This document shows, piece after piece, positions 3,554 through 46,596 of a stretch of DNA of 46,874 bases. The notes under the pieces were generated by a model, which saw only the letters and a list, made by a program, of their open reading frames with translations, ran no database searches and was not told the origin of the DNA. This DNA comes from Escherichia phage SusanneMuster_Bas79, in sequence record PQ850629.1; one strand, 5' to 3'. A program made the position numbers and the translations under genes. How positions within the stretch are numbered: the first letter of the stretch is position 1; the number at the start of each line of letters is the position of its first letter.

Positions 3554-3738
3554 TGAGCGTTTATTTTATTCATGCTGAAGTGCTTGGTGGTGGCGATATT
3601 GTTACCAAGGTTTGCGCGATAGCTACGACATCAAACGCCAATGAAGCGTTTGATTGGTTTTTAGGTCAGGAATTGGTTGCAAAATACGAAATAAAAGGCT
3701 ACGACGTCATCATTGATAAACTTGAAAAGGTGGAGTGA
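3550..3738 (+). CDS. hypothetical protein (about 61 aa; ATG at 3553 likely the true start)
   Basis: ORF track entry; stop/start overlap with neighbours. Confidence 0.4.
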   Translation: MMSVYFIHAEVLGGGDIVTKVCAIATTSNANEAFDWFLGQELVAKYEIKGYDVIIDKLEKVE

Positions 3739-3938
3739 TGGATAGAAAACATCTTCACGAAATGGCGGTCGAACTTAGAAAAAACTTTGAGAGCATCTGG
3801 TTTGATAGTCATGATAAATTCAATAAGCAGTATCAGGTTTACGCAAAATGCAGAGGGTTAGTGATTGGTGATAGAATGGAAAATGCCGTACTCCATCATA
3901 GCAACGCCACTATGCACAGGCGAGCATTCGACTACTGA
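3735..3938 (+). CDS. hypothetical protein (67 aa)
   Basis: ORF with overlapping start; followed by hairpin terminator. Confidence 0.4.
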   Translation: MMDRKHLHEMAVELRKNFESIWFDSHDKFNKQYQVYAKCRGLVIGDRMENAVLHHSNATMHRRAFDY

Positions 3939-3950
3939 TACCATGCTATA

Positions 3951-16571: not shown

Positions 16572-16600
16572 ACAAAACCCGCATCATGCGGGTTTTTTAT
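16572..16600. terminator. bidirectional rho-independent terminator
   Basis: AAAACCCGC-ATCAT-GCGGGTTTTTTATT; separates convergent capsid operon and leftward accessory operon. Confidence 0.65.
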
Positions 16601-16602
16601 TG

Positions 16603-17142
16603 CTACAGACGCATCGGCATAACAACAATCTTAGCAGTCTCGCCAGATGGCGCATTAAGACAGCAAACTGCGGCATTTGTGTTTCCATTAAGTTCAAATT
16701 TGATACAACTGAATTTAGGATTAAACAGCTTCGCCACTTTCTCAACGTCAACCAGATATCCAGCATTGAAGCCAATTTCCTCTGCTGGCAAGGTCTGCTT
16801 CGGAATGACGCGATCAATATCAGGGAATCGCCCGTCAATCTCTTCACAGATACCAGCACCAACCATAACGCCAGCTTCATCATGATACGTTGCAATTTTC
16901 GACTTTGTATCAATGATGGCGTAGTCATAGCGTTTTGTTGGTGACTTGCCAATCTTGATAATCACATTTTCTGTAAGATTATTATCATGGTTTCCACCAA
17001 TAAATGCGCGATGACCGTCAGTTGATGCAATACGACCATCAGGCATAAAGCAAATGCCATTCAGGTAATATCGCACATCGTTGCGCGCCTGAAATATTAA
17101 TGCTGATTCAAGTAATAGTTTGCCGATTTTTAGTTTCATCAC
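16603..17142 (-). CDS. truncated DnaN-like (DNA polymerase III beta clamp-like) protein
   Basis: 179 aa with DVRYYLNG, TDGHR, DGRFPD-x3-V-PK, EIGFN-x-YL-DV and C-terminal VVMPMRL, matching hallmark segments of bacterial beta-clamp domain II and the C-terminal end of domain III; ATG at 17139 is the likely start. Confidence 0.7.
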   Translation of the reverse strand: MMKLKIGKLLLESALIFQARNDVRYYLNGICFMPDGRIASTDGHRAFIGGNHDNNLTENVIIKIGKSPTKRYDYAIIDTKSKIATYHDEAGVMVGAGICEEIDGRFPDIDRVIPKQTLPAEEIGFNAGYLVDVEKVAKLFNPKFSCIKFELNGNTNAAVCCLNAPSGETAKIVVMPMRL

Positions 17143-17312
17143 TTCACCTTAATCATATGCTGTTTTGCAACCTTCAGGCACTCCTCAAAAATGCCACCCT
17201 TCTTTGCGCTCTGATTGCGCTTGTAATACTGAACTGCCGCATCAATTGCCATCTGGTCGATTTCAGGCAGTTTGGTACGTAGTTGTTTTTCAATGAATTG
17301 TTCTGGTGTCAT
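17139..17312 (-). CDS. hypothetical small protein (57 aa)
   Basis: hand-translated MTPEQFIEKQLRTKLPEIDQMAID...; overlaps stop of methyltransferase and start of DnaN-like gene. Confidence 0.35.
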   Translation of the reverse strand: MTPEQFIEKQLRTKLPEIDQMAIDAAVQYYKRNQSAKKGGIFEECLKVAKQHMIKVK

Positions 17313-18112
17313 TAAACGGACCTCATGAATGCTTTAATGAATTCTGCTGCGACTTGTGGAACTATGGCATTGCCATAACCGCGCAATCGTCCCACTCTTG
17401 CGGATACCCCATGAGTTGCCTCGCAAAATCCGCCTGGTATGACTCTAGTTTCCTTATCTGCTCCATGGTTGGGTTTCCATGAATCCCATAAACATGAAGC
17501 CACATCTGGCGATAAAGAGTATCGTTCCTGAATTTTCCGTCCTTTCTGTAAAATGTCTTGCTGAGATCCCCGTAATCCTTCCATCCTCGCGCCGTTGGTG
17601 TCGCCCATCCTCGCGCCAAAGATGATTCTTTTCCTTTCCTGTGGAGAGCCGACGCTGCAAGCTGGCAATACTGACGCCCCGCAGGCGTAGCCTTTGTCTT
17701 CCAGGTTAAGGAATACAAAATCGAGCCAGTGCTTCCCAATTGCTGCTGCAACCTGCTCTCCAAACAGCAATTCAGGCTTGCACTCTCTGATGAGCCTGAG
17801 AAATGCTGGGGCAAGGTGTCGATCGTCGTCAAATCCGAGAGACTTACCGGCAACGCTAAACGGCTGGCAAGGTGGTGATCCTGTCCAGAGTCGAGTGCTT
17901 TCTGGTATTCCTGCCAGCTGGAGTGCAAGGGGCCACCCTCCGATTCCGGCAAAGAAGTGACACTGTGTAAATCCTTCCAGGTCTGAAGGGGTGACTTCGG
18001 TGATTGATCGTTCATCGACATATCCGTAAGGAATTAGTTTATTGTTAATTAATTCACGCAGCCATGCCGCTGCGCCCTTGTCCCACTCATTGTAATAGTG
18101 GACCATCATCAC
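17312..18112 (-). CDS. DNA (cytosine-5)-methyltransferase
   Basis: motif I FAGIGGW, motif IV PPCQPFS, motif VI FGEQV, motif X GNAIVPQV; compact 266 aa. Confidence 0.85.
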   Translation of the reverse strand: MMMVHYYNEWDKGAAAWLRELINNKLIPYGYVDERSITEVTPSDLEGFTQCHFFAGIGGWPLALQLAGIPESTRLWTGSPPCQPFSVAGKSLGFDDDRHLAPAFLRLIRECKPELLFGEQVAAAIGKHWLDFVFLNLEDKGYACGASVLPACSVGSPQERKRIIFGARMGDTNGARMEGLRGSQQDILQKGRKIQERYSLSPDVASCLWDSWKPNHGADKETRVIPGGFCEATHGVSARVGRLRGYGNAIVPQVAAEFIKAFMRSV

Positions 18113-18918
18113 ATCTTCTCCAGAATTGCCATCACCTCGTGAATATCAGCAACAGGAATCTGGATAAACTCCTCATTCTCTGCCACTACATGACCAGCAG
18201 GAAGAATAACGTGGTCAGCTGGCTTCAGTAACTCAATCAGTCGGTCTACTGGCTTAATCTTTTTCGACTTAAGCACCTTCGCCGTTACCTTATCCTTGCC
18301 TTGCGCCTTCGCTTCTTCGACTGCCTCGTCGATAACTTTAACCGCATCATCGCCATGTTCGCGAGTTACTGCTACGGCATTTGCATAGCTGATTTGCCCT
18401 GCACTGATTCGCGCTTTTACTTCGGCTGGCACATCACCCAGTGACAGGTGCATCTGCACGTCAGAAACTGAGCGCCCTACCTTCTTGGCGATTTCCTCGT
18501 TGGTCCAGCCAAAACCCTTCAGTCGCGTGTAAGCCTTTGCGCGTTCAAACGGGTCAAGCTGCTTACCCTGACTGGACGACACCATGAAGGCGATTTTATC
18601 TGCTTCGCCTCCTGTGAAATCCTTGCACTCAATACGAACAATTGGTGCGCCACGCTCAATGGCACGCAACGCTCCGAGATAGCGATGCTGACCATCAAGA
18701 ATGCGGATTCCCTTCTCGTCTGGAATAACTGTTAATGCTGGCAATGGCTGACCTGACTCCCAGCACTGCGCGAAATACTCCACATGCTGCTCATCTGCTT
18801 CGCGGATGTTGTATCCTGGTTCCAGATAGATTTGCTCAACTGGCACGAGATATGTCTTGTTTACCGCGATTCCGTTGCGCGTTTCTTTGTCTGAATAGAT
18901 TTTGCTTAGTGTTTTCAT
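18109..18918 (-). CDS. ParB/Srx-domain protein (ParB-like nuclease domain)
   Basis: N-terminal ILDGQHRYLGALRA (ParB box GxxRxxA), Lys/Ala-rich linker, C-terminal domain; 4-nt overlap with methyltransferase gene. Confidence 0.7.
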   Translation of the reverse strand: MKTLSKIYSDKETRNGIAVNKTYLVPVEQIYLEPGYNIREADEQHVEYFAQCWESGQPLPALTVIPDEKGIRILDGQHRYLGALRAIERGAPIVRIECKDFTGGEADKIAFMVSSSQGKQLDPFERAKAYTRLKGFGWTNEEIAKKVGRSVSDVQMHLSLGDVPAEVKARISAGQISYANAVAVTREHGDDAVKVIDEAVEEAKAQGKDKVTAKVLKSKKIKPVDRLIELLKPADHVILPAGHVVAENEEFIQIPVADIHEVMAILEKM

Positions 18919-18921
18919 TGT

Positions 18922-19563
18922 TTACTCCTCATCACCGGAATTAGCAATATCGTAAAACTGACCGTATGTTATCTGCTTAAAGTTATCAGGTATCGTTACC
19001 TGTCCATGACCTTCACCTTTTGTATTTGGCACGGCAAAAATCAGGCAATCATCCTTTTGCGGGTGTTTGCCGCCATGAGTAGACAGCATTGCAAAACCAA
19101 ATCCGCGACCAGATTGCTCTCCGATTCCGGTGCGTGCGATGCCATAATGATTAACAATATAGTCTTTCCATTCTGGCAATAACTTTAATTTCTCGTTTGC
19201 CTCGCGCATCACCGCGTCCAGATTTTTGTTGTATTCCCGCCCGTCTTTTGTGTTTCCTTTTCCGCGAGCCACGATTACACGCTGACCATCCAAGAACTCT
19301 TCGCGCTTTATTGTCACAGGGCACGGAAATTCAAACTGCTTACTCCACACAAAGCTCTCAAGTAAGCCACCACCGACTGCTCCCCAGCTACGTGTCGTGG
19401 TGAAAGCGATAGCGCCAACCTTTTTCATGGCGTCGCCAAGAACTTCATTGCGGCGCTTTTGGATGTCATCATATGCGTCAATAACTTTCTTAACATCAGC
19501 ACCTTCAACCATGTAATAATCATAATGTTTTGCATTGCTGCTCATCTTCATCACCTCTAGCAT
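18922..19563 (-). CDS. hypothetical protein (about 207-213 aa)
   Basis: first gene of leftward operon; Gly-rich with acidic C-terminus; family not recognised. Confidence 0.5.
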   Translation of the reverse strand: MLEVMKMSSNAKHYDYYMVEGADVKKVIDAYDDIQKRRNEVLGDAMKKVGAIAFTTTRSWGAVGGGLLESFVWSKQFEFPCPVTIKREEFLDGQRVIVARGKGNTKDGREYNKNLDAVMREANEKLKLLPEWKDYIVNHYGIARTGIGEQSGRGFGFAMLSTHGGKHPQKDDCLIFAVPNTKGEGHGQVTIPDNFKQITYGQFYDIANSGDEE

Positions 19564-19564
19564 T

Positions 19565-19660
19565 TATTGTTGTTTCTACGTCACTAACTATAAACGCCAC
19601 ATCAATCTACGTCAACAGGAATATGCTAAAATCATGCTAATCAAAAAACAGGAGATTTGA
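19565..19660. promoter_or_regulatory. divergent promoter region with two conserved boxes
   Basis: TTTCTACGTCAC (19573-19584), CAATCTACGTCAAC (19603-19616), extended -10 TGCTAAAAT (19624-19632), GGAG before ATG 19663. Confidence 0.45.
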
Positions 19661-25327: not shown

Positions 25328-28268
25328 TGGCTGAAGAAGTCGGCGGAATTGTCTATGAAGTCGGGATGGATGTATCCGGACTTAAAGCTGGCACAAGTTC
25401 AGCGGAATCAGAATTATCAAAATTTGACTCCGCTGTAAGTGGCTCCACGAAGAATTTAAATAAACTTGATGGTCAGGCTGACTCAACTGGCAAGGCATTC
25501 TCCTCCCTTGTCTCCGTGGTTAAAAGCATTGATGCAACACTCAGCAAGATGGCAGCTTCCAGTGATGGTGCAGCAAGCGCTGTCAAGTCAACATCGCAAT
25601 CTGCTGAGTCAGCGAATCAGGTTATCGATGCATTAAATCAGCAACTTGCCATGATGCAGCAGCAACAGCAACAAGCCGCTGTATCAACAGGAAGGCTGGA
25701 AACCTCAATTAATGCCGTTACGACTGCTATTCGTGAGCTTGGAACATCAACTGGCGGCGCTGGCGCAAGCATATCTGGCACAGAAAGATTAATTGAAAGC
25801 CTCGGCAATCAGGTTGCCATTCTTGAAGAGCAAATGGAAAACGGCGCGAGAAGTGCGGCAATTCTTGCGGCGCAACTCAGAGCTGGAGATGGCGCAACTG
25901 ACGCGCAAAAGGCCAAGATTGCTGAGCTGACTGGTCGCCTGTACGACATGAAGAATGGCACAGAGTCGGCTGGCAAATCCACAAACGGATTCAGGAACGC
26001 GCTACAACAGGGCGGTTATCAGGTTCAGGACTTTATTGTTCAGGTTCAGAGTGGGCAGTCTGCTCTTGTTGCATTCAGTCAGCAGGGTTCGCAACTTGCA
26101 TCTGTATTCAGTCCGGTGGCTGGCGCAGTGTTAACGATAGCGACAGTTATCGCCGGCTCACTGATGGCCTCACTTAGTAACGGCAAGAATGCCATTAATG
26201 CCATGAAGGATGCCATATCTGCAATGGATCAGGTCATCAGTGTTTCCAGTAACGGCGTGGCAGCATACTCAGATAAGTTTGCAGCACTGGCAAAAGCCAA
26301 CACAACAGTTGCGACACTGATGCGCCAGCAAGCGCAACTTGAACTTTCAGCGGCTCTCTCTAAGGTATCGAAAGAAGTATCAAAAGCATCAGGTGAGTTC
26401 GTCACCTTTGGTGACAGACTTTTCGCATCTTTTGCTGGTGCAAACGTCAGCGTTAAATCATTCAACGATTACCTCTCAATGCTGAATATCACTACCAATG
26501 ATTTCAGCGAGGCAATGAAGCAGGCTGCATCTGCCGGACTTGCCGGGCAATCCACGATGAATAATATGATTGCCACCGTTGGCGCTCTGGCAAGTCGATT
26601 TGATTTGACCGACCAGCAAGCATTTGAATTTGCTAAACAACTCTCTGAAATCGCCAAAAACCCGAGCAATGAAAAACTTAATGCTTTAATTGTTACTCTG
26701 CAAAAGGTAGGTGAAGGACAGTCATCTGGCGCACAAAAGGCACGAGAATATGCTGCTCGTTTGCTGGAAATTGCCACCACAACAACTGACGCAACAATGC
26801 GCCTGAAAGCTCTTAAGGAGATGACTGACTCCTTAACGTCAAGTCAGGACAAGGCATTGCAAACTGCTCGTCAGACACTGTTTATTGAGAAGCAAACTGG
26901 CGATGAAAAACTAAAAGCTCAGGCATGGCGTGATGCGGAGGCTCAGGGATTAAAGCAGAATACCGCTGCGTTTCGTGAATATTACAATGTCAGACTTGAG
27001 ACGTACCGTCAGCAGGAAAAAAACGCTCAGGCAGCAAAAGATGAACGTAATGCAAACAACCAGCTAAAAACTGAATTAAAGCAACAGGAAACAATCCAGC
27101 AGAAATTAAATAAACTGCGGCAGGAAGCTCTACTTGCTGGTCAGGCAGAATCCACAAAAGAACTATCCCGCGAGCAAGCCATTCTCAACGCGCAGCAATC
27201 GCTTGGCAAAGCTGCCACTCAGGAGCAAATAAAACTGGCTGGTGAGTACGCTGCGAAGATTTGGGACCAGAAGAATGCACTGAAGGAACAGGCGGAAGCG
27301 GAGAAAGAAAAGCAGCGGGTAGAAAAATCATATCAGGGATTACGTGCCATTGCGTCACCAACGACTGGCATTGACAGCGAATACCAGCAACGCATGGCTG
27401 ACCTTGATGCTTATGCTGCTGCGTACCCACAGAAAATTACAGAGATTGAACAGACTCGCGCGTCCATTGAAGCACAATACCGCCAGCAGAGAATGGATGC
27501 TATGTGGGCTGAATGGCAGCAACAAAGCCTCGGAGCGCAACTGTTTGGCACCGCGCTGGATTCTGCAATGAGCACGGCATCAAACAGCATCACCGGATTG
27601 CTGACAGGTACAATGAGCGTTCAGGATGCCATGCGCAGTCTCGGCTCTACAGTGCTTAACTCGCTGGTAAATAGCTTCGTCGAGATGGGCGTGCAGTGGG
27701 TAAAATCTGCCGTTATGGGACAGACTGCACAGGTTACGGCTACGGCAACCACAACGGCTGCGCAAACGGCAGGACTGGCAACTACAACAGCAGCATCCAC
27801 TGCGGCGGCAGCCACCACCACGGCAGCGTGGACTCCGGCAGCAATCGTCGCATCAATCGGTTCATTCGGCGGCGCTGCTGCAATTGGGGTAGGCGCTGTT
27901 CTTGGGGCGCTGGCGATGGGTATCGCTGGCAAGCGAAAAAATGGTGGTCCTGTTAGCGCCGGAAGTATGTACGAAGTGGGCGAAAATGGCTTACCTGAGA
28001 TATTCCAGGCATCCAACGGTCGCCAGTACATGATTCCCGGAAATGACGGTTCAGTTATCAGCAACAAAGACCTGACAGGCGGCAGCGGTGGCGTCGTGGT
28101 TTATAATAGCATCATCAATAACAGCTCAGCGCAGGTTAGCAGCAGCGCCAGAGATAATGGTGATGGCAGCGTAACAGTTGAGACGATTGTGAGTGATATT
28201 GAGAACAACGGCGCGATAGGGCAGGCTATTTCAAGAAATTACTCAACAAACCGGAGAGCAACAGAATA

Positions 28269-35468: not shown

Positions 35469-36524
35469 TTAAAATCCTTCAATTGGAGTTGGTTTGTGTT
35501 CTGTTTTTTCTTCCTGCGGTTCTGGCTGCTGTGGTTGCGGTTTAGCCAGTTTTGCAGGATTGAAATTATCCTGCGGAGTTATTACCACAGGAGATAATTG
35601 CTCATCATTGATAAAAGACTCAATGCGATCATATTCAGCGGCAGAAGCAGCCAGAGAAGGCCAGATTGCGCGAATTTTATCTTTCAGGTTATCAGGTATT
35701 GATTTTGCTTCTTCCTTCAGGCCTTCCATGCCTTTTGCTGCAGAAAGCTGAAGTCTTGAGCGCCATGACTCAAACTCTTCGTCAACTTTAACGCCAGAGT
35801 CAACCCATTTGATGAGTCCGCGACCATGCGCCTCTCCAATATATCCATGGCGAACACTTTCACGACCAGACTCAAAGAATATTGGGCGTAGTTCTTCTGG
35901 TAATTTTGTGAACTCCTGAATTTTTCCTCCATCGTGCATCATCATGCTCACGGTCATCTCGAACATGAAATCTTTCTCGCACACTGGTTGCAACCCAAGT
36001 GATACAGGTTCCTTCGGGTTTGCGAAATCAGTTTTCTGACGTGCGCGAAGGCAGACAATGATATGCATATTGCTTTGTAGCATGGCATTCATGAACTTCT
36101 TGTGTTCAGCTTTGGCGCGCTTCCAGTCAGCCATCTTTTTACCGTTAAGCAGCGGCTTTTCAGCAATCTCCGTGCAACTGCCTTCACCTTCCCATTCATG
36201 CGAACCTGAATCAATAACAAGAACCTTAACGCCGGCAGCCTGAAACTCTTCAATGGCCTGACGGTAACGGGCCGGGCTGAATGGAGCATACATATCAGCG
36301 TGCAGGAATTTGCCATCAAGGATGTTTGAGTACAGGCGACCGCGACCGTTTTCAGTATCAAGGAATCCGATTTCTTCTGGTGAATCAACCATCCCGCGAG
36401 CCAGCTTAAGTGCGCTATATGTTTTGCCGCTACCTGACTGGCCTGAAATGCCGATGACCACGCGAGAACCTGAACGCTCTGCTGGTTTAATATTGAGAAT
36501 ACCCATTTGCATTACCTCACTCAA
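35469..36524 (-). CDS. RecA-like ATPase (Sak4-like recombination protein)
   Basis: Walker A GISGQSGSGKT near N-terminus; next to SSB and exonuclease. Confidence 0.6.
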   Translation of the reverse strand: MSEVMQMGILNIKPAERSGSRVVIGISGQSGSGKTYSALKLARGMVDSPEEIGFLDTENGRGRLYSNILDGKFLHADMYAPFSPARYRQAIEEFQAAGVKVLVIDSGSHEWEGEGSCTEIAEKPLLNGKKMADWKRAKAEHKKFMNAMLQSNMHIIVCLRARQKTDFANPKEPVSLGLQPVCEKDFMFEMTVSMMMHDGGKIQEFTKLPEELRPIFFESGRESVRHGYIGEAHGRGLIKWVDSGVKVDEEFESWRSRLQLSAAKGMEGLKEEAKSIPDNLKDKIRAIWPSLAASAAEYDRIESFINDEQLSPVVITPQDNFNPAKLAKPQPQQPEPQEEKTEHKPTPIEGF

Positions 36525-36714
36525 ATTCTACAAAATCACCACCAACCATTTCGACGATAATGAATCCAGATTCATCATCATATGTTGCCTGCCATATAGC
36601 TCCAGTTTCGTCGCTTATTTTAAAGGTACCACCAAAAAAGTCAGCGCTATACCACTCATCTTCTTTAAATCTTTTGCTTGTTGAGCTTGCACAAAATAAT
36701 TTCATTTGCATCAC
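36517..36714 (-). CDS. hypothetical protein (65 aa)
   Basis: ORF overlapping neighbours in replication module. Confidence 0.35.
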   Translation of the reverse strand: MMQMKLFCASSTSKRFKEDEWYSADFFGGTFKISDETGAIWQATYDDESGFIIVEMVGGDFVEFE

Positions 36715-38335: not shown

Positions 38336-38776
38336 TCAATCTACATCATTCAGCAAGCCAAAATAGAAAAGTGTGGCTCTTTTTAGTTCATCAAGACCGT
38401 AAGCAATGGCGGCATAATGACCAAGTCTGCACATCTCAGTTAACACAGCCGATTGCTCCTTGCTCACTCTGCTTTTGCTTTTATCGCGGCGCTTTGACTC
38501 AATCATCCCGCAACTGTGATTCGCACCCGGCGTCATTATCACGTTGTCGCCTATTCCAGGCTTAACCCCCATCTTCTGGCGCTTCAGTACGAACTGGACG
38601 CGGCTGGATGTTCCTGTTTCATTCGGGACGTGAAACCATAGCACATCAGGGAAACAGTGTTGCATCCATGTTCCATAACCCATCTGGTCAGTCTCCTCTT
38701 TTGGGCATTCGCCGCGATAACCGCTATCAAATACCCATATACCGCTATCAAGCTGCTTCACTTTGTTCTCCTGCAA
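38336..38776 (-). CDS. VRR-NUC domain nuclease
   Basis: 146 aa; WFHVPNE...GVKPGIGD...MIESKRR pattern consistent with VRR-NUC; overlaps helicase gene end. Confidence 0.6.
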   Translation of the reverse strand: MQENKVKQLDSGIWVFDSGYRGECPKEETDQMGYGTWMQHCFPDVLWFHVPNETGTSSRVQFVLKRQKMGVKPGIGDNVIMTPGANHSCGMIESKRRDKSKSRVSKEQSAVLTEMCRLGHYAAIAYGLDELKRATLFYFGLLNDVD

Positions 38777-40685
38777 AATCTTTTCTATGGATTATGTCGC
38801 GACCTTTATCATTAATGCGATGAGTGATGCGTTTTGGCGCTTTAATCAATCCAGCATACATCATGAACTGCTTAGCATTCTGGCATTTCAGGATTTTCCC
38901 CGCCATTGACTTATCATCAAGGTGAGGAAAAATAGCCTTTGCCTTGAACATGTTTTTCATGTGAGTCGCACCGCCATATGGGTAGAAAACTTCGTTAGCC
39001 CAGCCTTCTTTGCCATCACAACGATTAATCCAGTAGCGATACAAAATACCTTCTCCATCCTTTGTTAGCTGGACTTTGAAATCAATAACATCAGCCCACT
39101 CATTATCGGTATACGCACGCTCATTCAGTGCCGCATTCGGGTCGCGCAACACGTGATCGCAATGCCGGCAATAGCGCGCCGTTGGGTCGTTTTTAGTGCC
39201 GCATCCATCATCAAAAATCCGTATTCCGTGCTTATCAAAACCGCAACGAATATAACTGAAAAACTCCTCGCAGCGACCATCTGGCGACAATGCATCTTTG
39301 CCAATGCATCGACGCGCATATGGGCTGTTCATTGTTCCACATGTATGACACGGAACTTGTTCGCCACTGCGTTTTGAACGTTGCGCTTCAGCTTCTTCCA
39401 GAATTGGGTCTTCATATAGCTGACCAAGCTCAAACATCGTGCCTGAGAAATCAAGAACCAGATGGTTTTCTTTATGATACCCGGCGTCAATTTGGTCTTT
39501 CTTCAGCAGTCGCATTCCGCGACCAAGCAACTGAACAAGAAGGGTGAGCGACATTATTTTTCGCAATATAACGCTTGTATCCCATAGCGGGATGTTTACG
39601 CCGGTCGTCAAGCAACCAATTTGGAAAACATATTTAATCTTGCCAGTGTATGCATCCTTTAATGCCTTGCGTCTGGCTTTCTGTCCCATATCTTCGGTGA
39701 CGATCGCATAACTTCCTTCAGGTAGGTATTTTGCCGCCTCCTGACAGTGCTTCTTGCCAGCGCATGTAATCAATACGCCGTTTCTGTTTTTTGTCAGCTC
39801 CATAACCTTGAGCATGATTTTCTGCGTGAGTGTTCCTTGCTCAAGGATTTCTTTCTGCATCTGCTTGAGTTGCTCGGTGGTAAATTCCTGAACTCCATCA
39901 CTTCCTGACGCCTCAAATGCTGACAGGTCGTAATGCAGATCATCAATATCATGAAGACCAAAAATTGTAGGGACAAGAAAGCCATTATCAACAAGGTATT
40001 TGGTATCAATATTTATTATTTCATGCTTCCAGTAAGAACCCTTAATTGACTCAGTTCCACGAAATGGGCTGCCAGTGTAGCCAATAACAATGACATCGTG
40101 TCCGTATTTAGCTTTGCACCTACGGTTAAATTCGGTCATTATTACGCCGTACTGTGTGTCTGAATCTTCTCCAACAATATCCTCCCAGTTCACTTGATGG
40201 CACTCATCAACCAAAATATATCGTGGGCAAAAGTCTGAAAGTGCACACTTTGAGATAACATTGCCTGATTCATCCTTTATGTCGAAAAGTGAGTTTTTTA
40301 TTGTTCTCTCCGTCCCAGCAATAAGCGGGTATGCCGTTGACTTTCTGCCAAGAGACGCGCTGAAAAGTGAGTTTTTAACACTCAGATTCCATAGCTCTTC
40401 CGCATCCTGCTCAATAATTTCCCCCTGTCTGGCAATAACAAGGCCTTCCCACCCCATATCCTGAAAGCGTCGCGCAATCATGGCAATCATAATGGTCTTT
40501 CCAGCACCTACAGATGCCGTCACAAAACTTGGCTTAGGGTCTTTGCCAAACTTGCGGATAACTTCAGCCGTCTTTTCATAAACCAGCCACTGATATGGTC
40601 GCGGCTCAATCTCACCCGTATGAACAACTGACCGCAATTTGTCTATATCCAATTCAGCAATCATTGCGTCTATTTTATGCGTCAT
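38748..40685 (-). CDS. SF2 DNA helicase (DEAD/DEAH-box type) with C-terminal zinc-ribbon region
   Basis: Walker A ASVGAGKT, motif II LVDECHQ, C-terminal Cys clusters (CHTCG...C, C-x2-C). Confidence 0.8.
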   Translation of the reverse strand: MTHKIDAMIAELDIDKLRSVVHTGEIEPRPYQWLVYEKTAEVIRKFGKDPKPSFVTASVGAGKTIMIAMIARRFQDMGWEGLVIARQGEIIEQDAEELWNLSVKNSLFSASLGRKSTAYPLIAGTERTIKNSLFDIKDESGNVISKCALSDFCPRYILVDECHQVNWEDIVGEDSDTQYGVIMTEFNRRCKAKYGHDVIVIGYTGSPFRGTESIKGSYWKHEIINIDTKYLVDNGFLVPTIFGLHDIDDLHYDLSAFEASGSDGVQEFTTEQLKQMQKEILEQGTLTQKIMLKVMELTKNRNGVLITCAGKKHCQEAAKYLPEGSYAIVTEDMGQKARRKALKDAYTGKIKYVFQIGCLTTGVNIPLWDTSVILRKIMSLTLLVQLLGRGMRLLKKDQIDAGYHKENHLVLDFSGTMFELGQLYEDPILEEAEAQRSKRSGEQVPCHTCGTMNSPYARRCIGKDALSPDGRCEEFFSYIRCGFDKHGIRIFDDGCGTKNDPTARYCRHCDHVLRDPNAALNERAYTDNEWADVIDFKVQLTKDGEGILYRYWINRCDGKEGWANEVFYPYGGATHMKNMFKAKAIFPHLDDKSMAGKILKCQNAKQFMMYAGLIKAPKRITHRINDKGRDIIHRKDFAGEQSEAA

Positions 40686-41745: not shown

Positions 41746-42048
41746 TGCTTTGATGTTAACTTTTATTGCGAACACTTCCACCGGGTCAGGACCGAAATGT
41801 GGGTGGGTGATGGTCTTAACCGTCCATCCATCGTATGGGATATCAATACGCCTGGATTTATCGTCCTTCTTTGGATATCCTTTTGTGATAATTAACCTTT
41901 CGTACTTCCTTCCAATCTGTCCGCTATCTTTAAAGTTAATAAGGCGCTTCTTCCAGTAGTCATTAAAAAGGCGATACTCTTCCGTTTTATCTCCGCGAAT
42001 CATGGCATCGAAGTATTCACCTTTGACGGCAAGTTGCAGGTTAGCCAT
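41743..42048 (-). CDS. ASCH/PUA-like domain protein (putative)
   Basis: MANLQLAVKGEYFDAMIRGDKTEEYR resembles the N-terminal motif of ASCH/DUF3850-type proteins; ATG at 42048. Confidence 0.45.
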   Translation of the reverse strand: MANLQLAVKGEYFDAMIRGDKTEEYRLFNDYWKKRLINFKDSGQIGRKYERLIITKGYPKKDDKSRRIDIPYDGWTVKTITHPHFGPDPVEVFAIKVNIKA

Positions 42049-42304
42049 TATTTCCCTCCAGAATCCAAACTGAATTACCAATACGACTGTTATTTAAATC
42101 CTTTGACACGCGGCCATCCTTACAAAGAGAAATCAGAACCTTCCGTAACTTCGCTGCTGTCCATTCATCATCAGGAAATTCATTCACCATTGATAGACGC
42201 AAACTCCACGTAGCCACTGAGAACTTACGAAAAATTCCAAGTTTCTCCTCCTCAATGGATTTTCTCTTTCTCATCACATATAAAACCTTATCCTTCACAT
42301 CCAT
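42041..42304 (-). CDS. hypothetical protein (87 aa)
   Basis: ORF track entry. Confidence 0.35.
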   Translation of the reverse strand: MDVKDKVLYVMRKRKSIEEEKLGIFRKFSVATWSLRLSMVNEFPDDEWTAAKLRKVLISLCKDGRVSKDLNNSRIGNSVWILEGNNG

Positions 42305-42314
42305 TTCCTTACCC

Positions 42315-42506
42315 TCACTTAATCATCATCTTTGAAATATCAACGTGACCAACACAAAATCTGTGCCAGTAATCATCAAGCATGTGGTAATTAGAGCGAA
42401 TCCATACTTTGTTAATCCGGCTCCAGAAAAACCACGTCGAATAACCATGCGGCCTGAAATGCCATAAACCTTCTGAGCGACAAATTTCGCCTGATATTGT
42501 TCTCAT
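42315..42506 (-). CDS. hypothetical protein (63 aa)
   Basis: ORF track entry, Trp-rich. Confidence 0.3.
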   Translation of the reverse strand: MRTISGEICRSEGLWHFRPHGYSTWFFWSRINKVWIRSNYHMLDDYWHRFCVGHVDISKMMIK

Positions 42507-44059
42507 TTCAACCTCGGATTTATGTGAACAGTATTCCCGATAAATACGCAGTAACCATCCTCTTCAAGTGATGGCAATACACTTGACCTGAGTCGGTCAT
42601 AAATTTTAGGTATCCCTTTGAATGGTCGTACGTTTTTAAGTGAATCATAAAGCCACTTCACCGTTACGTTTGTTTTTCCTTTCTGAGCGGCAGAGCGTAG
42701 CTTTTCGGCAACAACATCAAATTCAGAACGCTCACCAGCATATCCATTTGATTCCACGGCGTCGGTGAATGTTTTTGTTAGTGCGTCATAAACACTGATG
42801 GCGCGACTAATTTCATTTTCACCGATAATCTTTGATTGCTTTCCTCCATCACACCAGTTTTCAGCAGCGTGAAATATTGCTGCCAGACGTATTATTTGCT
42901 TATCAGCTTTACCCATCGCGCCACGAAGAAGGACGTGATCCCACTTACCGCCGGGAAGGAAGTTTTTCTCCCACTGATTTCGTAACAGGCCAATCATTCT
43001 TGCTGAGTCATTGTGAAGCGTCAGTTTTGTTTTTTCTGCTGACACAACATTATGTATAAATCTTGCATATTCCGACCTCAAGCTATCTGGCATTGGCTTG
43101 CTTACAGGGCAATCATTAACCATGTCCCAGTGTTCGCGATAGCCAAGCATTGATTGCTCTCGCAACATCAGGAAACGTTCAGAAAGACCGTTCCCCCTGT
43201 CGCCAGCGGCAAGAATGGCATCAATACTTTCATCCTGCGCAATCACACTTATGTTTCCAAGCACGTAACCAGATGAAACGCCACGACCAACACGAGCAGA
43301 ACCAATGAATCCGCCATCCCAGCCCTTCAGGATGACTTCGGCGTTTGCCTTTCCACCTTCTTTTCCGTAAGAGAGGCCAAGACATGTGTTAAGGACGCTT
43401 GCCTCGTCACTTATCAGATTAAAAAAACCACCTTCATGAATGGCCTGATGCTGGACAGCCTCCGGAGTTGCGTCCGTCAGTGGATATGTGATCGTATAAA
43501 GCTCCTCCAGCTTCTCCTTTTCGCGAGCAATATCATCGCCGATTAGTGCCTTTGCATTCTGATTACTGGCCTCTTTGTATGCCTTCATCAACTCTTCAAT
43601 GCGAAGATTTATTTTTATGATCTGCTTTTCCATCTTTTTGGAAAGGTTGTCATATTCAATCTTCACCGGATTCATGTGCATTGAGTTGATGGCAGTTTTC
43701 CCTGCTGATGGAGGCTGAGAAGTAACCACGTAAAGAGAAACTGGAAGCTCTGAATGGTAATACTCAACGCTAAAGTTTCTCGTCATTGCGCTGGCAACGC
43801 ACCCAAGTAAATGCATGAACGATGTATTTATTGGGAACTGAACAGCACGAGCTGCAGCGATTGCATAACGAGACAGCAAATCTGTTCTGTGCTCACTGGT
43901 CAGTTCTGTTTCTGAGTACGTTACATCACGCTCCTTACCTTCCTTGATATCCAGCCACATATTTGAGCTTGGTGTCATGCCATGATGGAAGGCGACGCGA
44001 GCAGGAGATACTTTCAATTCCCTTGCTTCGTTGAAGATATCTTGAGCTGTGATCATCAT
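42503..44059 (-). CDS. large replication-module protein, possible origin-associated initiator/ATPase
   Basis: 518 aa; P-loop-like PPSAGKT; located next to the iteron-flanked AT-rich region; family not confidently recognised. Confidence 0.4.
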   Translation of the reverse strand: MMITAQDIFNEARELKVSPARVAFHHGMTPSSNMWLDIKEGKERDVTYSETELTSEHRTDLLSRYAIAAARAVQFPINTSFMHLLGCVASAMTRNFSVEYYHSELPVSLYVVTSQPPSAGKTAINSMHMNPVKIEYDNLSKKMEKQIIKINLRIEELMKAYKEASNQNAKALIGDDIAREKEKLEELYTITYPLTDATPEAVQHQAIHEGGFFNLISDEASVLNTCLGLSYGKEGGKANAEVILKGWDGGFIGSARVGRGVSSGYVLGNISVIAQDESIDAILAAGDRGNGLSERFLMLREQSMLGYREHWDMVNDCPVSKPMPDSLRSEYARFIHNVVSAEKTKLTLHNDSARMIGLLRNQWEKNFLPGGKWDHVLLRGAMGKADKQIIRLAAIFHAAENWCDGGKQSKIIGENEISRAISVYDALTKTFTDAVESNGYAGERSEFDVVAEKLRSAAQKGKTNVTVKWLYDSLKNVRPFKGIPKIYDRLRSSVLPSLEEDGYCVFIGNTVHINPRLK

Positions 44060-44295
44060 GAAATCCTTTTTACGTAAACCATATCTTTGTCAGGGTATCC
44101 AACCTTTGTTGAGAATTTCATGCCTTCATTCCTGCGCATGAAATAGTTTAATGCGTTCCTCAGGCTTGCAATACCTCCAAACCTCTTCGAGTCAATCATC
44201 ACAGTCTCCCCTACTGAAACCGCCGACAACCCAGAAAGAGCTGCATTCTTTTTGCCATACTTATCAAGTTTCACAAAATCCTCCAACAGCAACAA
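44056..44295 (-). CDS. hypothetical small protein (start uncertain; track start is TTG)
   Basis: ORF adjacent to iteron region. Confidence 0.35.
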   Translation of the reverse strand: MLLLEDFVKLDKYGKKNAALSGLSAVSVGETVMIDSKRFGGIASLRNALNYFMRRNEGMKFSTKVGYPDKDMVYVKRIS

Positions 44296-44348
44296 ATTAT
44301 GATTGAATCATATCATAAGTATTGAATCATGCAACATCAAATACGACT

Positions 44349-44663
44349 CACGTGGGTAACGTGGGGCAGCCGTGGGGAACATCACCTTCCCCACGAACTT
44401 TTACTCTAAGTATATGTAATATAATATAATTATTATTATTTGGGTTAATGGGTAATATTATTATTCATATTATAGATAGTAATTAACATAATATTAACAA
44501 ATGGATTATTTGAATATATTTATAAGGGGATGGGTATGAAATCTGCCCCTTTTTACCCACGAAAAATAAAAACATTCAAATCAATAATTTACGATGAAAA
44601 ACGTGGGGCAACCAACCTTCCCCACGACCTGCCCCACGAGCAAAAATTTACCCCACGGGCACG
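44349..44663. repeat. iteron-flanked AT-rich region (candidate replication origin / control region)
   Basis: about 9 copies of CCCCACG / CGTGGGG (4 left, 5 right, both orientations) flanking a roughly 120-bp strongly AT-rich core (44400-44520). Confidence 0.6.
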
Positions 44664-44680
44664 TTTTTAACGCATCCCTG

Positions 44681-45748: not shown

Positions 45749-45811
45749 CTACCCGTTCATATTAATTATCAGTGCGCTCTATGTGGCGCACGCTTTAGTG
45801 GAGATGTATGG

Positions 45812-46198
45812 ATGAGCAATAGATATATTTATCACTACAACGCAATATCTGTGGGCGGCGCGTCATCAGTGGCTGGCATCGCTCAGTTGACATTCAGAAT
45901 TAAATCGCAAGAAGATGTCGAGATGCTGAAGAGTTTGATTGGCCGTGACGGTTTCACAGCAGTAGCAATCGCATCTCTTTCATATCTCTGGCGAGAGAAT
46001 GATGACGAAGGGTATGACGCAACAAAATTCGACCAGGCGTTTTTGATTAACAAATTCTACGAGCGTTATCCGCTTCCTGAATTTAAGAGTGATTCAGAGC
46101 GAGCAGAGGCACTTGGTTACTTCATGACTGGTGCAGAATTACAGCGACTTGGAAAGTTTATCGAATACAACGATGAGGATGATAGTGATGATTACTAA
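45812..46198 (+). CDS. hypothetical protein (128 aa, acidic C-terminus)
   Basis: ORF track entry. Confidence 0.45.
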   Translation: MSNRYIYHYNAISVGGASSVAGIAQLTFRIKSQEDVEMLKSLIGRDGFTAVAIASLSYLWRENDDEGYDATKFDQAFLINKFYERYPLPEFKSDSERAEALGYFMTGAELQRLGKFIEYNDEDDSDDY

Positions 46199-46298
46199 AC
46201 AACAACGACGCCGCTACACCACTGGCGCTAAAATCTTCCTTACTGTTTATGTGCTGGCACTGGTGGCGGCTATTGCAGGAGTTGTGCATTATGTTTAA
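46188..46298 (+). CDS. small membrane peptide (36 aa)
   Basis: hand-translated MITKQQRRRYTTGAKIFLTVYVLALVAAIAGVVHYV; overlaps both neighbours. Confidence 0.3.
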   Translation: MITKQQRRRYTTGAKIFLTVYVLALVAAIAGVVHYV

Positions 46299-46596
46299 TC
46301 AATTATCTGATTTTTATAAAGCATATTCAGACTGGGTTGCCGCTGGCGCAACAGAAGGCAAACCATTTAGCCGTCACGTCGGGCTTTGTGGCTCTATTTT
46401 TCTTTACCTTTCTATGAAAGGATATCCAATAAAAGATAGAAAAATTACTCTTGAGATGATGCGAGCGCAGTTTGTTAAGGCTGGTCTTGACCGTGAGTAC
46501 CCGTTTAATAACCAAAAGAACCCATACCGTATGGAAAGCATTAATGGGCTGATTCACACCAACAAGAATCGCATCCAGTGGGTTAAAAAGGAGTAG
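46291..46596 (+). CDS. hypothetical protein (101 aa)
   Basis: ATG 46291 preceded by GGAG; ORF track start 46249 lies upstream in the same frame. Confidence 0.45.
   Translation: MFNQLSDFYKAYSDWVAAGATEGKPFSRHVGLCGSIFLYLSMKGYPIKDRKITLEMMRAQFVKAGLDREYPFNNQKNPYRMESINGLIHTNKNRIQWVKKE

What the first reader, a model, noticed from the sequence alone, without database searches (positions are those of the whole stretch)
16603..17142. Phage-encoded truncated DnaN-like sliding-clamp protein (about 1.5 clamp domains) in a phage with no polymerase gene
The minus-strand ORF translates to a 179-aa protein carrying, in order, DVRYYLNG, TDGHR, DGRFPD-x3-V-PK, EIGFN-x-YL-DV and the C-terminal VVMPMRL. I recognise these as hallmark segments of the bacterial DNA polymerase III beta clamp (domain II and the very end of domain III), but the protein is half the size of a normal three-domain clamp and lacks domain I and the first half of domain III. 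The window encodes SSB, helicase, primase and recombination proteins but no DNA polymerase. A clamp fragment could recruit or poison the host replisome (the retained C-terminal region contributes to the dimer interface and clamp-binding pocket), or assemble into a non-canonical ring.
Basis: partly seen in the sequence, partly recalled or inferred. Interest (0 to 1): 0.8.

Follow-up and report, generated by a model that had tools for sequence, protein, structure and literature searches.

The report
Phage mini beta-clamp: stand-alone polymerase-docking pocket
This phage gene encodes a half-size copy of the bacterial DNA sliding clamp that keeps the pocket where polymerases dock but lacks the surfaces that close the ring; such short clamps are common in phages and were noted in 2011, but what they do has never been tested.

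Summary

The window is a mosaic relative of Escherichia phage Bas77 (Skatevirus). No ORF of 200 aa or more is a DNA polymerase.

The protein is not a frameshifted dnaN. It belongs to a large family of 170-215 aa phage proteins (PHROG 3007, mislabelled 'RusA-like resolvase'). Short phage PolIII-beta homologues were reported in 2011, and stand-alone ones were called an open question in 2016.

New here:
- All seven listed ring-interface residues are lost; six lie in the deleted segments.
- 16 of the 18 pocket residues are identical to E. coli beta, and they are the most conserved columns in the family.
- The gene sits beside replication genes in unrelated phages: directly after PolA in three lineages, and between cII and an initiator/DnaB-like helicase pair in about 20 lambdoid loci.

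Best reading: a non-ring docking module for polymerases or other clamp clients in phage replication. A decoy role or an unusual oligomeric ring is not excluded.

The parts
16603..17142 (-). Mini beta-clamp CDS: 179 aa from the GTG at 17142, more likely 178 aa from the ATG at 17139. Residues ~1-116 correspond to beta domain II and residues ~121-179 to beta 316-366.
   Evidence: PHROG 3007 E = 2e-61. dN/dS 0.11.
17139..17312 (-). 57-aa ORF (phrog_4439, function unknown). Its stop codon overlaps the mini-clamp ATG (TGATG), so the two are probably translationally coupled. It is the conserved upstream partner in the Skate/Jersey-like group.
   Evidence: Present 3-15 nt upstream of the mini-clamp match in 39 of the 41 IMG/VR loci that have it, and about 210-220 nt upstream in the other two.
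17312..18112 (-). C5 DNA methyltransferase. It is variable cargo in the operon and not a conserved neighbour.
   Evidence: phrog_363 E = 3e-75. Found in only 8 of about 42 syntenic loci.
18109..18918 (-). ParB-like HTH protein, a conserved upstream member of the operon.
   Evidence: PF17762 and phrog_1033. Syntenic in 42 loci.
18922..19563 (-). 213-aa protein of unknown function, the first gene of the operon. This segment differs from Bas77.
   Evidence: phrog_2260 and phrog_22326. No Pfam match. No BLAST match to Bas77 over 18919-19542.
19587..19615 (-). Sigma-70-like promoter (TTGACG, 17-nt spacer, TATAGT; 10 of 12 matches) upstream of the five-gene operon.
   Evidence: This is a consensus match only.
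16574..16596 (.). Bidirectional intrinsic terminator hairpin (10-bp stem, T runs on both strands) directly after the mini-clamp stop codon. It lies between the convergent capsid-side transcription unit and the mini-clamp operon.

Best explanation
The gene encodes a 'mini-beta': a stand-alone copy of the part of the bacterial sliding clamp that forms the protein-binding hydrophobic cleft. It consists of domain II plus the last beta-alpha-beta-beta-beta unit of domain III. I infer that these are three spatially contiguous half-domains, about a quarter of a ring. Both ring-closing surfaces are gone, and in this subgroup one channel-lining helix of domain II is gone too.

I propose that it does not encircle DNA as a canonical clamp. 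Instead it uses the conserved cleft to bind the clamp-binding motif of a DNA polymerase or another clamp client. In this polymerase-less phage the likely ligands are host Pol III alpha/epsilon, or possibly Pol I or the clamp loader. It would then serve as a docking or tethering accessory factor of the phage replisome, which runs on phage-encoded helicases and primase.

Shown: the homology, the architecture, the fold, the loss of the interface residues, the retention and family-wide conservation of the cleft residues, purifying selection, and the recurrent linkage to replication genes.

Inferred: that the cleft binds a clamp-binding motif, which protein is bound, the monomeric or non-ring state, and that the effect on phage replication is positive.
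For: Architecture:
- Alignments with E. coli DnaN place residues 1-116 on beta ~125-250 and residues 121-179 on beta 316-366. Beta 1-124 and ~251-313 are absent.
- AF2 model: pLDDT 92.

Cleft:
- Of the 18 pocket residues listed in PMC11139829, 17 have a partner in the window protein.
- 16 of those are identical to E. coli beta. The exception is L177 to A; V344 is unaligned. Overall identity is only 32%.
- Across 132 divergent family members the equivalents of R152, L155, T172 and R246 are invariant. G174, P242 and M362 are at least 95% conserved.
- Pocket columns are much more conserved than the rest (0.81 against 0.41, Mann-Whitney p = 1.5e-7). The five most conserved columns are all subsite-I residues.

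Not a ring by the known route:
- Every listed dimer-interface residue is lost.
- The model shows only two long helices, with the alpha2' position replaced by loop 65-73.
- The pI is 7.6 (family median 6.9) against 5.25 for E. coli beta.

Functional gene:
- dN/dS is 0.11 over 582 pairs.
- About 1,794 clusters at 50% identity match at E <= 1e-3. Among the best 150, nearly all are 170-215 aa.

Link to replication:
- The gene lies immediately downstream of a family-A DNA polymerase in Acinetobacter phage 4316, an Achromobacter (pro)phage and Edwardsiella phage PEi21.
- PolA lies within 10 kb in three further lineages.
- In about 21 lambdoid loci the order is cro, cII, mini-clamp, initiator-position gene, DnaB-like helicase, nin genes.
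- It lies next to an SNF2 helicase in L062 and L064.
Against: - No binding has been shown.
- No clamp-binding motif was found in the window's helicases, primase, SSB or recombination proteins, nor in the four PolA proteins encoded next to mini-clamps.
- In the window itself the gene is not in the replication module at 35-44 kb. It is the last gene of a ParB-like/methyltransferase operon beside the capsid gene. In EP23, Bcep781 and Shewanella phage 1/41 it is a lone opposite-strand gene among structural genes.
- The cleft residues are also the best conserved part of DnaN in general. Homologues were found through these motifs, which inflates their apparent conservation.
- Removing half of domain III should expose a normally buried intradomain surface, which argues for some oligomer or partner. 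I could not model this because only monomer prediction was available.
Confidence: 0.45

Rival explanations
1. Decoy or competitor. The free cleft module titrates host proteins that carry clamp-binding motifs, such as the clamp-loader delta subunit, Hda, MutS/MutL or the translesion polymerases. This would keep them away from the host clamp, shutting down or re-programming host DNA transactions rather than helping the phage polymerase.
For: - The cleft is fully retained while everything needed for ring closure is lost.
- Per the review, delta binds a monomeric beta variant about 50-fold more tightly than the dimer.
- In the window the gene sits in an operon driven by a host-type promoter, together with ParB-like and methyltransferase genes and away from the replication module.
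- Its presence both in phages with and without their own polymerase fits a host-directed function (against 11-15).
Against: - A polymerase-less phage needs host Pol III, its clamp and its loader, so titrating alpha or delta would be self-defeating.
- The recurrent position inside replication operons, after PolA or between cII and initiator/helicase, looks like a replisome component rather than a host-takeover gene.
- Delta also contacts a beta loop. I did not map that loop here; from memory it lies in the deleted first half of domain III.
Confidence: 0.2
2. Non-canonical ring. Each chain has three half-domains, so four chains give the 12 half-domains of a clamp ring. Orphan half-domains would pair across twofold axes to give a D2 tetramer with alternating up and down chains. 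Alternatively a C-shaped dimer could form. Either would act as a true processivity factor for host Pol III or phage PolA.
For: - The geometry works. From the interface and pocket residue lists, the retained units appear to be three contiguous half-domains of the ring. The cleft uses the first half of domain II and the second half of domain III, and the dimer interface uses the first half of domain III and the second half of domain I.
- 160 residues superimpose on beta as one rigid body.
- An exposed intradomain face needs a partner.
- The gene is adjacent to PolA genes in three lineages.
- Kazlauskas and Venclovas discuss ring and non-ring options for viral clamp homologues.
Against: - The oligomeric state has not been tested in any way.
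- In this subgroup the domain-II helix that would line the channel is replaced by a loop, so only 8 of 12 channel helices would be present.
- The known interface residues are gone.
- A D2 ring would present cleft faces on both sides, unlike any known clamp, and it is unclear how a clamp loader would handle that.
Confidence: 0.15
3. Transcription coupling. Like T4 gp45, or the host clamp used by the phage Mu late activator, the mini-clamp would bind a phage regulator that carries a clamp-binding-like tail and so link replication to gene expression.
For: - In lambdoid loci the gene directly follows cII, and those CII homologues end in QITINF, QVTMDF or QVTMNF. Lambda CII ends in QIQMEF. All resemble the hexameric motif Q-phi-x-[L/M]-x-[F/L].
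- Precedents for clamp-dependent late transcription exist in Mu and T4 (titles and abstracts).
- In several phages the gene borders the structural (late) genes.
Against: - Lambda has the same CII tail without any mini-clamp. From memory, that tail is known as an FtsH degradation signal.
- The window phage has no CII.
- No motif-bearing regulator was found in the window.
Confidence: 0.05
4. Poison subunit or dead fragment. The protein co-assembles with host beta monomers to make defective rings, or it is a decaying piece of a captured or frameshifted dnaN gene.
For: The sequence is most similar to enterobacterial beta clamps, which could suggest capture from a host.
Against: - All interface residues are lost; six of the seven lie in the deleted segments.
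- dN/dS is 0.11.
- The length is conserved across about 150 divergent representative clusters.
- The fold is confidently predicted.
- The upstream ORFs are unrelated to DnaN.
Confidence: 0.03

Closest known systems
Bacterial beta sliding clamp (DnaN; E. coli beta, e.g. PDB 1mmi/2pol)
   Same: - Homologous sequence: E = 1e-11, about 32% identity.
- 16 of the 18 clamp-binding-motif cleft residues are identical, and the C-terminal VVMPMRL is identical.
   Different: - Half the size. Domain I and the first half of domain III are absent.
- The head-to-tail dimer-interface residues are absent.
- In this subgroup the second helix of domain II is replaced by a loop.
- The pI is higher (7.6 against 5.25).
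- Scores fall below the TIGR00663 and Pfam cut-offs.
Short phage PolIII-beta homologues (PHROG 3007). Examples: Bcep781 gp15 'DNA Pol III b subunit fragment'; the five 'shorter' homologues of Kazlauskas & Venclovas 2011, PMC3201878
   Same: - This protein is a member: PHROG 3007 E = 2e-61 over the full length.
- 32% identity to Bcep781 gp15.
- Same length class and same predicted fold as many phage proteins in BFVD, TM 0.8-0.89.
   Different: - The 2011 paper describes the short forms as covering 'the second and third domains'. Here only the last half of domain III is present.
- No function has been assigned to any member.
- The label 'RusA-like Holliday junction resolvase', attached to PHROG 3007 and to Bas77_0042, has no support: no RusA match even at E <= 10.
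Herpesvirus non-ring processivity factors (HSV UL42, CMV UL44, KSHV PF-8, EBV BMRF1)
   Same: - They have the clamp fold but do not form closed rings and need no clamp loader (PMC4889955; PMC3201878).
- This is the functional analogy I favour.
   Different: - They are two-domain, PCNA-like proteins with a strongly basic DNA-binding face, and they always co-occur with a cognate viral polymerase.
- The mini-beta is beta-like, has 1.5 domains, is near neutral in charge, and here has no viral polymerase partner.
E. coli beta* (UV-inducible shorter beta made from an internal start in dnaN).
   Same: It is an N-terminally truncated clamp lacking domain I and starting at about the same position (beta ~135) as the phage protein.
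   Different: - Beta* keeps a complete domain III, so it has two full domains, and it was reported to act as an oligomeric clamp.
- The phage protein lacks half of domain III and the interface it carries.
Phage proteins that target the host clamp (e.g. Twort Gp168, PDB 7evp)
   Same: Both are phage-encoded factors aimed at the clamp node of the host replisome.
   Different: Gp168 is an unrelated small inhibitor that plugs the DNA channel of the host clamp. The mini-beta is itself a clamp derivative.

Membership tests
Bacterial beta sliding clamp DnaN (TIGR00663; Pfam DNA_pol3_beta 1/2/3) | Three-domain chain of about 366 aa (domains I, II and III) | tested here: not met
   The protein has 178-179 aa. 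Beta 1-124 and ~251-313 have no counterpart.
Bacterial beta sliding clamp DnaN (TIGR00663; Pfam DNA_pol3_beta 1/2/3) | Score above the curated family cut-offs | tested here: not met
   TIGR00663 scores 36.2 bits against a cut-off of 137.65. PF02768 scores 17.2 and PF02767 scores 15.2, both against 27.
Bacterial beta sliding clamp DnaN (TIGR00663; Pfam DNA_pol3_beta 1/2/3) | Clamp fold of repeated beta-alpha-beta-beta-beta units | tested here: met
Bacterial beta sliding clamp DnaN (TIGR00663; Pfam DNA_pol3_beta 1/2/3) | Head-to-tail dimer interface (I78, F106, R103 with I272, L273, E298, E304) | tested here: not met
   Six of the seven residues fall in deleted segments. The E298 position is a non-conserved Pro.
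Bacterial beta sliding clamp DnaN (TIGR00663; Pfam DNA_pol3_beta 1/2/3) | Hydrophobic cleft that binds clamp-binding motifs (subsites I and II) | tested here: met
   At sequence level 16 of the 18 listed residues are identical (17 have a partner), and they are the most conserved columns in 132 homologues. Actual binding was not tested.
Bacterial beta sliding clamp DnaN (TIGR00663; Pfam DNA_pol3_beta 1/2/3) | Closed ring that encircles DNA and is loaded by a clamp loader | not testable with these tools
   Only monomer prediction was available. The oligomeric state is unknown.
Short phage PolIII-beta homologues (PHROG 3007) | Full-length match to the family profile | tested here: met
   phrog_3007 E = 2e-61, residues 2-179 on profile positions 1-186 of 190.
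Short phage PolIII-beta homologues (PHROG 3007) | Length of about 170-215 aa, made of domain II plus the C-terminal end of beta, encoded in phage or prophage genomes | tested here: met
   - Length histogram of the representative clusters.
- 271 phage records carry a homologue.
- BFVD holds structural twins of 178-250 aa.
RusA Holliday-junction resolvase (the label carried by Bas77_0042 and PHROG 3007) | RusA endonuclease domain | tested here: not met
   A Pfam scan at E <= 10 returns only the two beta-clamp domains. All structure matches are clamps.
Non-ring viral processivity factors (UL42/UL44 type) | Clamp fold with a strongly basic DNA-binding face, acting as a monomer or C-shaped dimer bound to the tail of the cognate polymerase | tested here: inconclusive
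- The pI of 7.6 lies between ring clamps and the basic non-ring factors (criterion from PMC3201878).
- Binding to a polymerase tail cannot be tested here.

The most novel reading that the evidence does not exclude
The mini-beta is a non-ring adaptor that physically couples the host Pol III core to a replisome built on phage-encoded helicases. It would do this through the clamp-binding motifs of alpha or epsilon. This is a tau-like bridging role carried out by a fragment of the clamp itself. It would explain why stand-alone PolIII-beta homologues recur in phages that bring their own helicase but no polymerase. A variant reading is that four chains assemble into a D2-symmetric 12-half-domain ring, a clamp architecture never seen before.
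Probability: 0.25. Interest if true: 0.8.

Novelty: new member of a known kind. Interest (0 to 1): 0.5.

Why it matters
Surveys of viral replication genes noted stand-alone PolIII-beta homologues in polymerase-less phages and asked what they are for (PMC4889955). I found no paper in the searchable library that answers this.

This window shows that the short form is the smallest piece of the clamp that still contains the whole partner-binding cleft. It also shows that the family is very large and under strong selection. The cleft is the hub through which all bacterial polymerases, the clamp loader, Hda and MutS/L work, and it is an antibiotic target.

A near-identical protein is encoded by Bas77, a BASEL-collection phage that grows on an E. 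coli K-12 derivative with restored O-antigen. Its cleft is almost identical to that of E. coli beta. The question is therefore directly testable with existing peptides, inhibitors, mutants and phage genetics.

Whichever answer holds (adaptor, decoy or new ring), it would describe a new way for phages to plug into the host replisome. It would also provide a small, possibly monomeric cleft module for binding studies.

A practical point: the label 'RusA-like Holliday junction resolvase', spread by PHROG-based annotation, should be corrected.

Tried and rejected
1. Single-sequence AlphaFold2 gave an unusable model (pLDDT 38.6). This cost one of the two prediction jobs.
2. Two homologous-protein searches listed almost only relatives of 70% identity or more. 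Diversity came only from a search with Bcep781 gp15.
3. The BLASTP and phmmer alignment of the C-terminal third to beta 251-306 was rejected. The family profile aligns it to beta 316-366 and not to 251-313.
4. The frameshifted or fragmentary dnaN idea was rejected.
5. A search for clamp-binding motifs in window proteins and in the PolA proteins next to mini-clamps found nothing convincing.
   - ParB-like QMHLSL lies inside its HTH domain.
   - QMKLF in the small ORF at 36517-36714 loses its Q in homologues, and the true start is probably the following Met.
6. A functional link to the neighbouring C5 methyltransferase was rejected. The methyltransferase is present in only 8 of about 42 syntenic loci.
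7. Testing whether mini-clamps track their hosts' DnaN was uninformative. The Acinetobacter phage protein hits A. baumannii beta only marginally better than E. coli beta, and there is no Burkholderia clamp in the PDB.
8. PADLOC returned no hits.
9. The afdb50 fold library was unavailable.
10. The search for related loci failed with the 132-sequence alignment. With the 6-sequence alignment it returned a sample biased toward close relatives.
11. Ten literature searches found no functional or structural study of the short phage homologues. One further search attempt failed on syntax.
12. There is no megablast match of the lambdoid cII/mini-clamp segment in complete E. coli genomes.
Full report
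**What is there.**
- The minus-strand ORF 16603..17142 is present as described: 179 aa from a GTG.
- The more likely start is the ATG at 17139, giving 178 aa. It overlaps the stop codon of the upstream 57-aa ORF (TGATG) and follows an AAGGTG ribosome-binding site. This is the start used in GenBank for the 99.4%-identical Bas77_0042.
- A 10-bp hairpin flanked by T runs on both strands (16574-16596) follows the stop codon.
- The gene is the last of five tightly packed minus-strand genes: a 213-aa unknown, a ParB-like protein, a C5 methyltransferase, the 57-aa ORF and the mini-clamp. They lie behind a sigma-70-like promoter at 19615..19587.

**Where the window comes from.**
- The segment 16000-18200 is 100% identical to Escherichia phage ClaudiaMuster_Bas77, PQ850598. 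The BASEL paper PMC11990801 places Bas77 in a Skatevirus cluster of 46-48 kb siphoviruses that depend on O16 O-antigen.
- Over its whole length the window is a mosaic relative rather than the same genome. Blocks of 96-100% identity are interrupted by segments with no match: 18919-19542, 25380-27159, 41747-44678 and 45804-46588.
- All 24 ORFs of 200 aa or more are accounted for. They comprise the packaging, head and tail proteins, a methyltransferase, a ParB-like protein, a Sak4-like AAA_24 ATPase, a PD-(D/E)XK exonuclease, an HNH endonuclease, an SNF2-type helicase, a zinc-ribbon primase, a DUF3987 helicase, three proteins of unknown function (202, 213 and 496 aa) and two overlapping alternative-frame ORFs. 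The 161-aa SSB lies below that size cut. None is a DNA polymerase.

**Is it clamp-like beyond chance?** Yes.
- phmmer against PDB sequences gives E = 1e-11 to Enterobacter and E. coli beta.
- TIGR00663 gives E = 3e-9.
- A 132-sequence family profile aligns to E. coli beta 128-250 with 99.5% probability and E = 3e-22.
- Pairwise tools gave two competing placements for the C-terminal third: beta 251-306 or beta 315-366. The family profile settles it. That block aligns to beta 316-366 (E = 1.7e-5; E = 4e-7 against that segment alone) and gives no alignment to beta 251-313.
- AlphaFold2 with the family alignment gives pLDDT 92 and pTM 0.88. The single-sequence run had failed.
- The model has only two long helices, at residues 8-17 and 127-140. 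The position of the second helix of domain II (beta ~197-208) is a short loop, residues 65-73. From the sequences, longer family members such as Bcep781 gp15 and the Acinetobacter phage protein seem to keep that helix, so its loss is a feature of this subgroup.

**What was kept and what was lost.** I took the residue lists from the 2024 beta-clamp review, PMC11139829.
- *Cleft retained in the window protein.* Of the 18 distinct residues forming subsites I and II, 17 have a partner and 16 of these are identical to E. coli beta. L177 becomes Ala and V344 is unaligned. Overall identity is only 32%.
- *Cleft conserved in the family.* Across 132 divergent homologues the equivalents of R152, L155, T172 and R246 are invariant. 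G174, P242 and M362 are at least 95% conserved.
- *Statistics.* After removing close relatives, cleft columns average 0.81 conservation against 0.41 for the rest (Mann-Whitney p = 1.5e-7). The five most conserved columns are all subsite-I residues.
- *Interface lost.* None of the listed dimer-interface residues is retained. I78, F106, R103, I272, L273 and E304 lie in deleted segments, and E298 aligns to a variable Pro.
- *Geometry (inference).* The cleft uses the first half of domain II and the second half of domain III. The ring-closing interface uses the first half of domain III and the second half of domain I. From this I infer that the protein is a spatially contiguous arc of three half-domains, about a quarter of a ring, with the cleft at its centre. 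The deletion would then trim an end of the arc rather than cut out its middle. This fits the rigid-body superposition.

**It is a gene, not a relic.**
- Among 42 Skate/Jersey-like copies the median dN/dS is 0.11 over 582 pairs.
- A search of 1.84 billion representative proteins finds 1,794 clusters at E <= 1e-3 and 181 at E <= 1e-10. The best 150 are nearly all 170-215 aa.
- tblastn finds homologues in 271 phage records from Salmonella, Escherichia, Klebsiella, Vibrio, Acinetobacter, Proteus, Burkholderia, Shewanella and other hosts.
- BFVD holds many predicted phage structures of 178-250 aa with the same fold, TM 0.8-0.89. These include phages of Gram-positive hosts.

**What was already known.**
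- The Bcep781 gp15 GenBank record calls it a 'DNA Pol III b subunit fragment'.
[quoted passage not shown] - Ten literature searches found no functional or structural study.
- PHROG 3007, and through it Bas77_0042 and many RefSeq records, carries the label 'RusA-like Holliday junction resolvase'. Nothing supports that label.

**Genomic context across lineages.**
- *Skate/Jersey-like group.* In 41 IMG/VR loci the order is ParB-like, variable cargo, 57-aa ORF, mini-clamp, then the convergent major capsid gene. The 57-aa ORF lies within a few nucleotides of the mini-clamp in 39 of those 41 loci. The methyltransferase is present in only 8 loci, so it is cargo.
- *After a polymerase.* In three unrelated phages the mini-clamp is the gene immediately after a family-A DNA polymerase: Acinetobacter phage 4316, an Achromobacter (pro)phage and Edwardsiella phage PEi21. 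PolA lies within 10 kb in three more lineages.
- *Lambdoid phages.* In about 21 lambdoid loci the order is CI (divergent), Cro, CII (PF05269, E = 6e-36), mini-clamp, a gene in the position of the initiator, a DnaB-like helicase, then NinB and NinG. CII is directly upstream in 19 of them, and a phage DnaB-like helicase follows in 17. The mini-clamp therefore heads the replication module of phages that, as lambdoids, are not expected to encode a polymerase.
- *Next to a helicase.* In L062 and L064 an SNF2-like helicase follows within 64 nt.
- *Isolated.* In EP23, Bcep781 and Shewanella phage 1/41 it is a lone opposite-strand gene among structural genes.
- Overall the family is linked to DNA replication and is not restricted to polymerase-less phages.

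**Mechanism.** The evidence shows a selected protein that keeps the clamp's partner-binding cleft almost residue for residue, has lost the canonical means of closing a ring, and travels with replication genes.
- *Favoured model (confidence about 0.45).* It is a non-ring docking module. The cleft would bind the clamp-binding motif of a polymerase or other clamp client, and the protein would help the phage replisome use that enzyme. In this phage the candidates are host Pol III alpha or epsilon, possibly Pol I or the clamp loader. This replisome runs on phage helicases and primase, so it may lack the host's DnaB-tau link to Pol III. The closest functional analogy is the herpesvirus UL42/UL44 type of clamp-fold factor that works without a closed ring. 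The shift in pI from 5.25 for beta to 7.6, with a family median of 6.9, goes in that direction but is not decisive.
- *Weaknesses.* No binding has been shown. No clamp-binding motif was found in the phage's own replication proteins or in the adjacent PolA proteins. In this window the gene is not in the replication module. Removing half of domain III should expose a buried surface, which implies an oligomer or a partner, and the coupled 57-aa protein is one candidate. I could not model any of this.
- *Rivals.*
  - A decoy that titrates host clamp clients (0.2). This fits the free cleft and the report that delta binds monomeric beta about 50-fold more tightly. It would be awkward for a phage that needs host Pol III.
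  - A non-canonical ring, for example a D2 tetramer of four chains with three half-domains each, or a C-shaped dimer (0.15). The geometry is possible but untested, and the missing channel helix counts against it.
  - Coupling to transcription regulators (0.05).
  - A poison subunit or dead fragment (0.03), which the evidence largely excludes.

**Verdict.** The feature is a member of a large family that was already noticed but never characterised, so it is not a singular oddity. New here are:
- the exact architecture, namely the minimal unit that contains the cleft;
- the complete loss of interface residues;
- the quantified conservation of the cleft;
- the recurrent replication-gene contexts.

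I rate interest at 0.5. It is not surprising to a specialist that such genes exist. Their function has been an acknowledged open question since 2016, and a close relative of this phage is in the BASEL collection and grows on an E. coli K-12 derivative, so the question is directly testable.

Noticed in passing
window 16603-17142 (= Bas77_0042), and PHROG 3007: The GenBank and RefSeq product name 'RusA-like Holliday junction resolvase' comes from the PHROG 3007 label and is a misannotation. There is no RusA match even at E <= 10, and every sequence and structure match is a beta clamp.
   Followed up: yes
L084:9699-9992 and about 19 other lambdoid loci (L065-L098); lambda cII at L102:61-354: CII homologues encoded directly upstream of mini-clamps end in QITINF, QVTMDF, QVTMNF or QFTINF, and lambda CII ends in QIQMEF. 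These C-terminal tails fit or nearly fit the hexameric clamp-binding consensus Q-phi-x-[L/M]-x-[F/L]. Lambda has this tail without a mini-clamp, and from memory the tail is known as an FtsH degradation signal, so this may be coincidence. A CII-clamp interaction seems not to have been considered.
   Followed up: partly
window 36517-36714 (-): A small acidic protein of 62-65 aa lies between the Sak4-like and exonuclease genes. Its N-terminus MKLFC is invariant in homologues of 41-62% identity. [quoted passage not shown] The upstream Gln that would make it QMKLF is not conserved. This is a weak lead for a cleft ligand.
   Followed up: partly
window 17139-17312 (-): The 57-aa ORF (phrog_4439, unknown function) is translationally coupled to the mini-clamp and stays immediately upstream of it in 39 of 41 related loci, while the genes further upstream vary. 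It could be a partner that covers the exposed half-domain surface.
   Followed up: partly
window 18919-19542, 25380-27159, 41747-44678, 45804-46588 (also 3603-3939): The window is not the deposited Bas77 genome but a mosaic relative. These segments have no BLAST match to PQ850598. They include a different allele of the DUF3987 helicase region and a 213-aa ORF where Bas77 has two small genes, one of them annotated as anti-restriction.
   Followed up: partly
window 18109-18918 (-), residue 155: The ParB-like protein contains QMHLSL, an exact match to the hexameric clamp-binding consensus. It lies inside the predicted HTH domain, so it is probably a chance match.
   Followed up: no
L017:6001-6528 (Edwardsiella phage PEi21): The mini-clamp homologue directly after the PolA gene is annotated as two separate ORFs (gp53 and gp52, both labelled 'RusA-like'). 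This suggests a frameshift, a sequencing error or a pseudogene in that record.
   Followed up: no
window 38748-40685 (-): The 645-aa SNF2-type helicase (ResIII plus Helicase_C) carries extra zinc-ribbon-like motifs at residues ~446-513. SNF2-like helicases recur in mini-clamp-bearing phages and lie directly downstream of the mini-clamp in L062 and L064.
   Followed up: no
window 16574-16596: A perfect 10-bp hairpin with T runs on both strands acts as a shared bidirectional terminator between the capsid-side transcription unit and the mini-clamp operon.
   Followed up: yes
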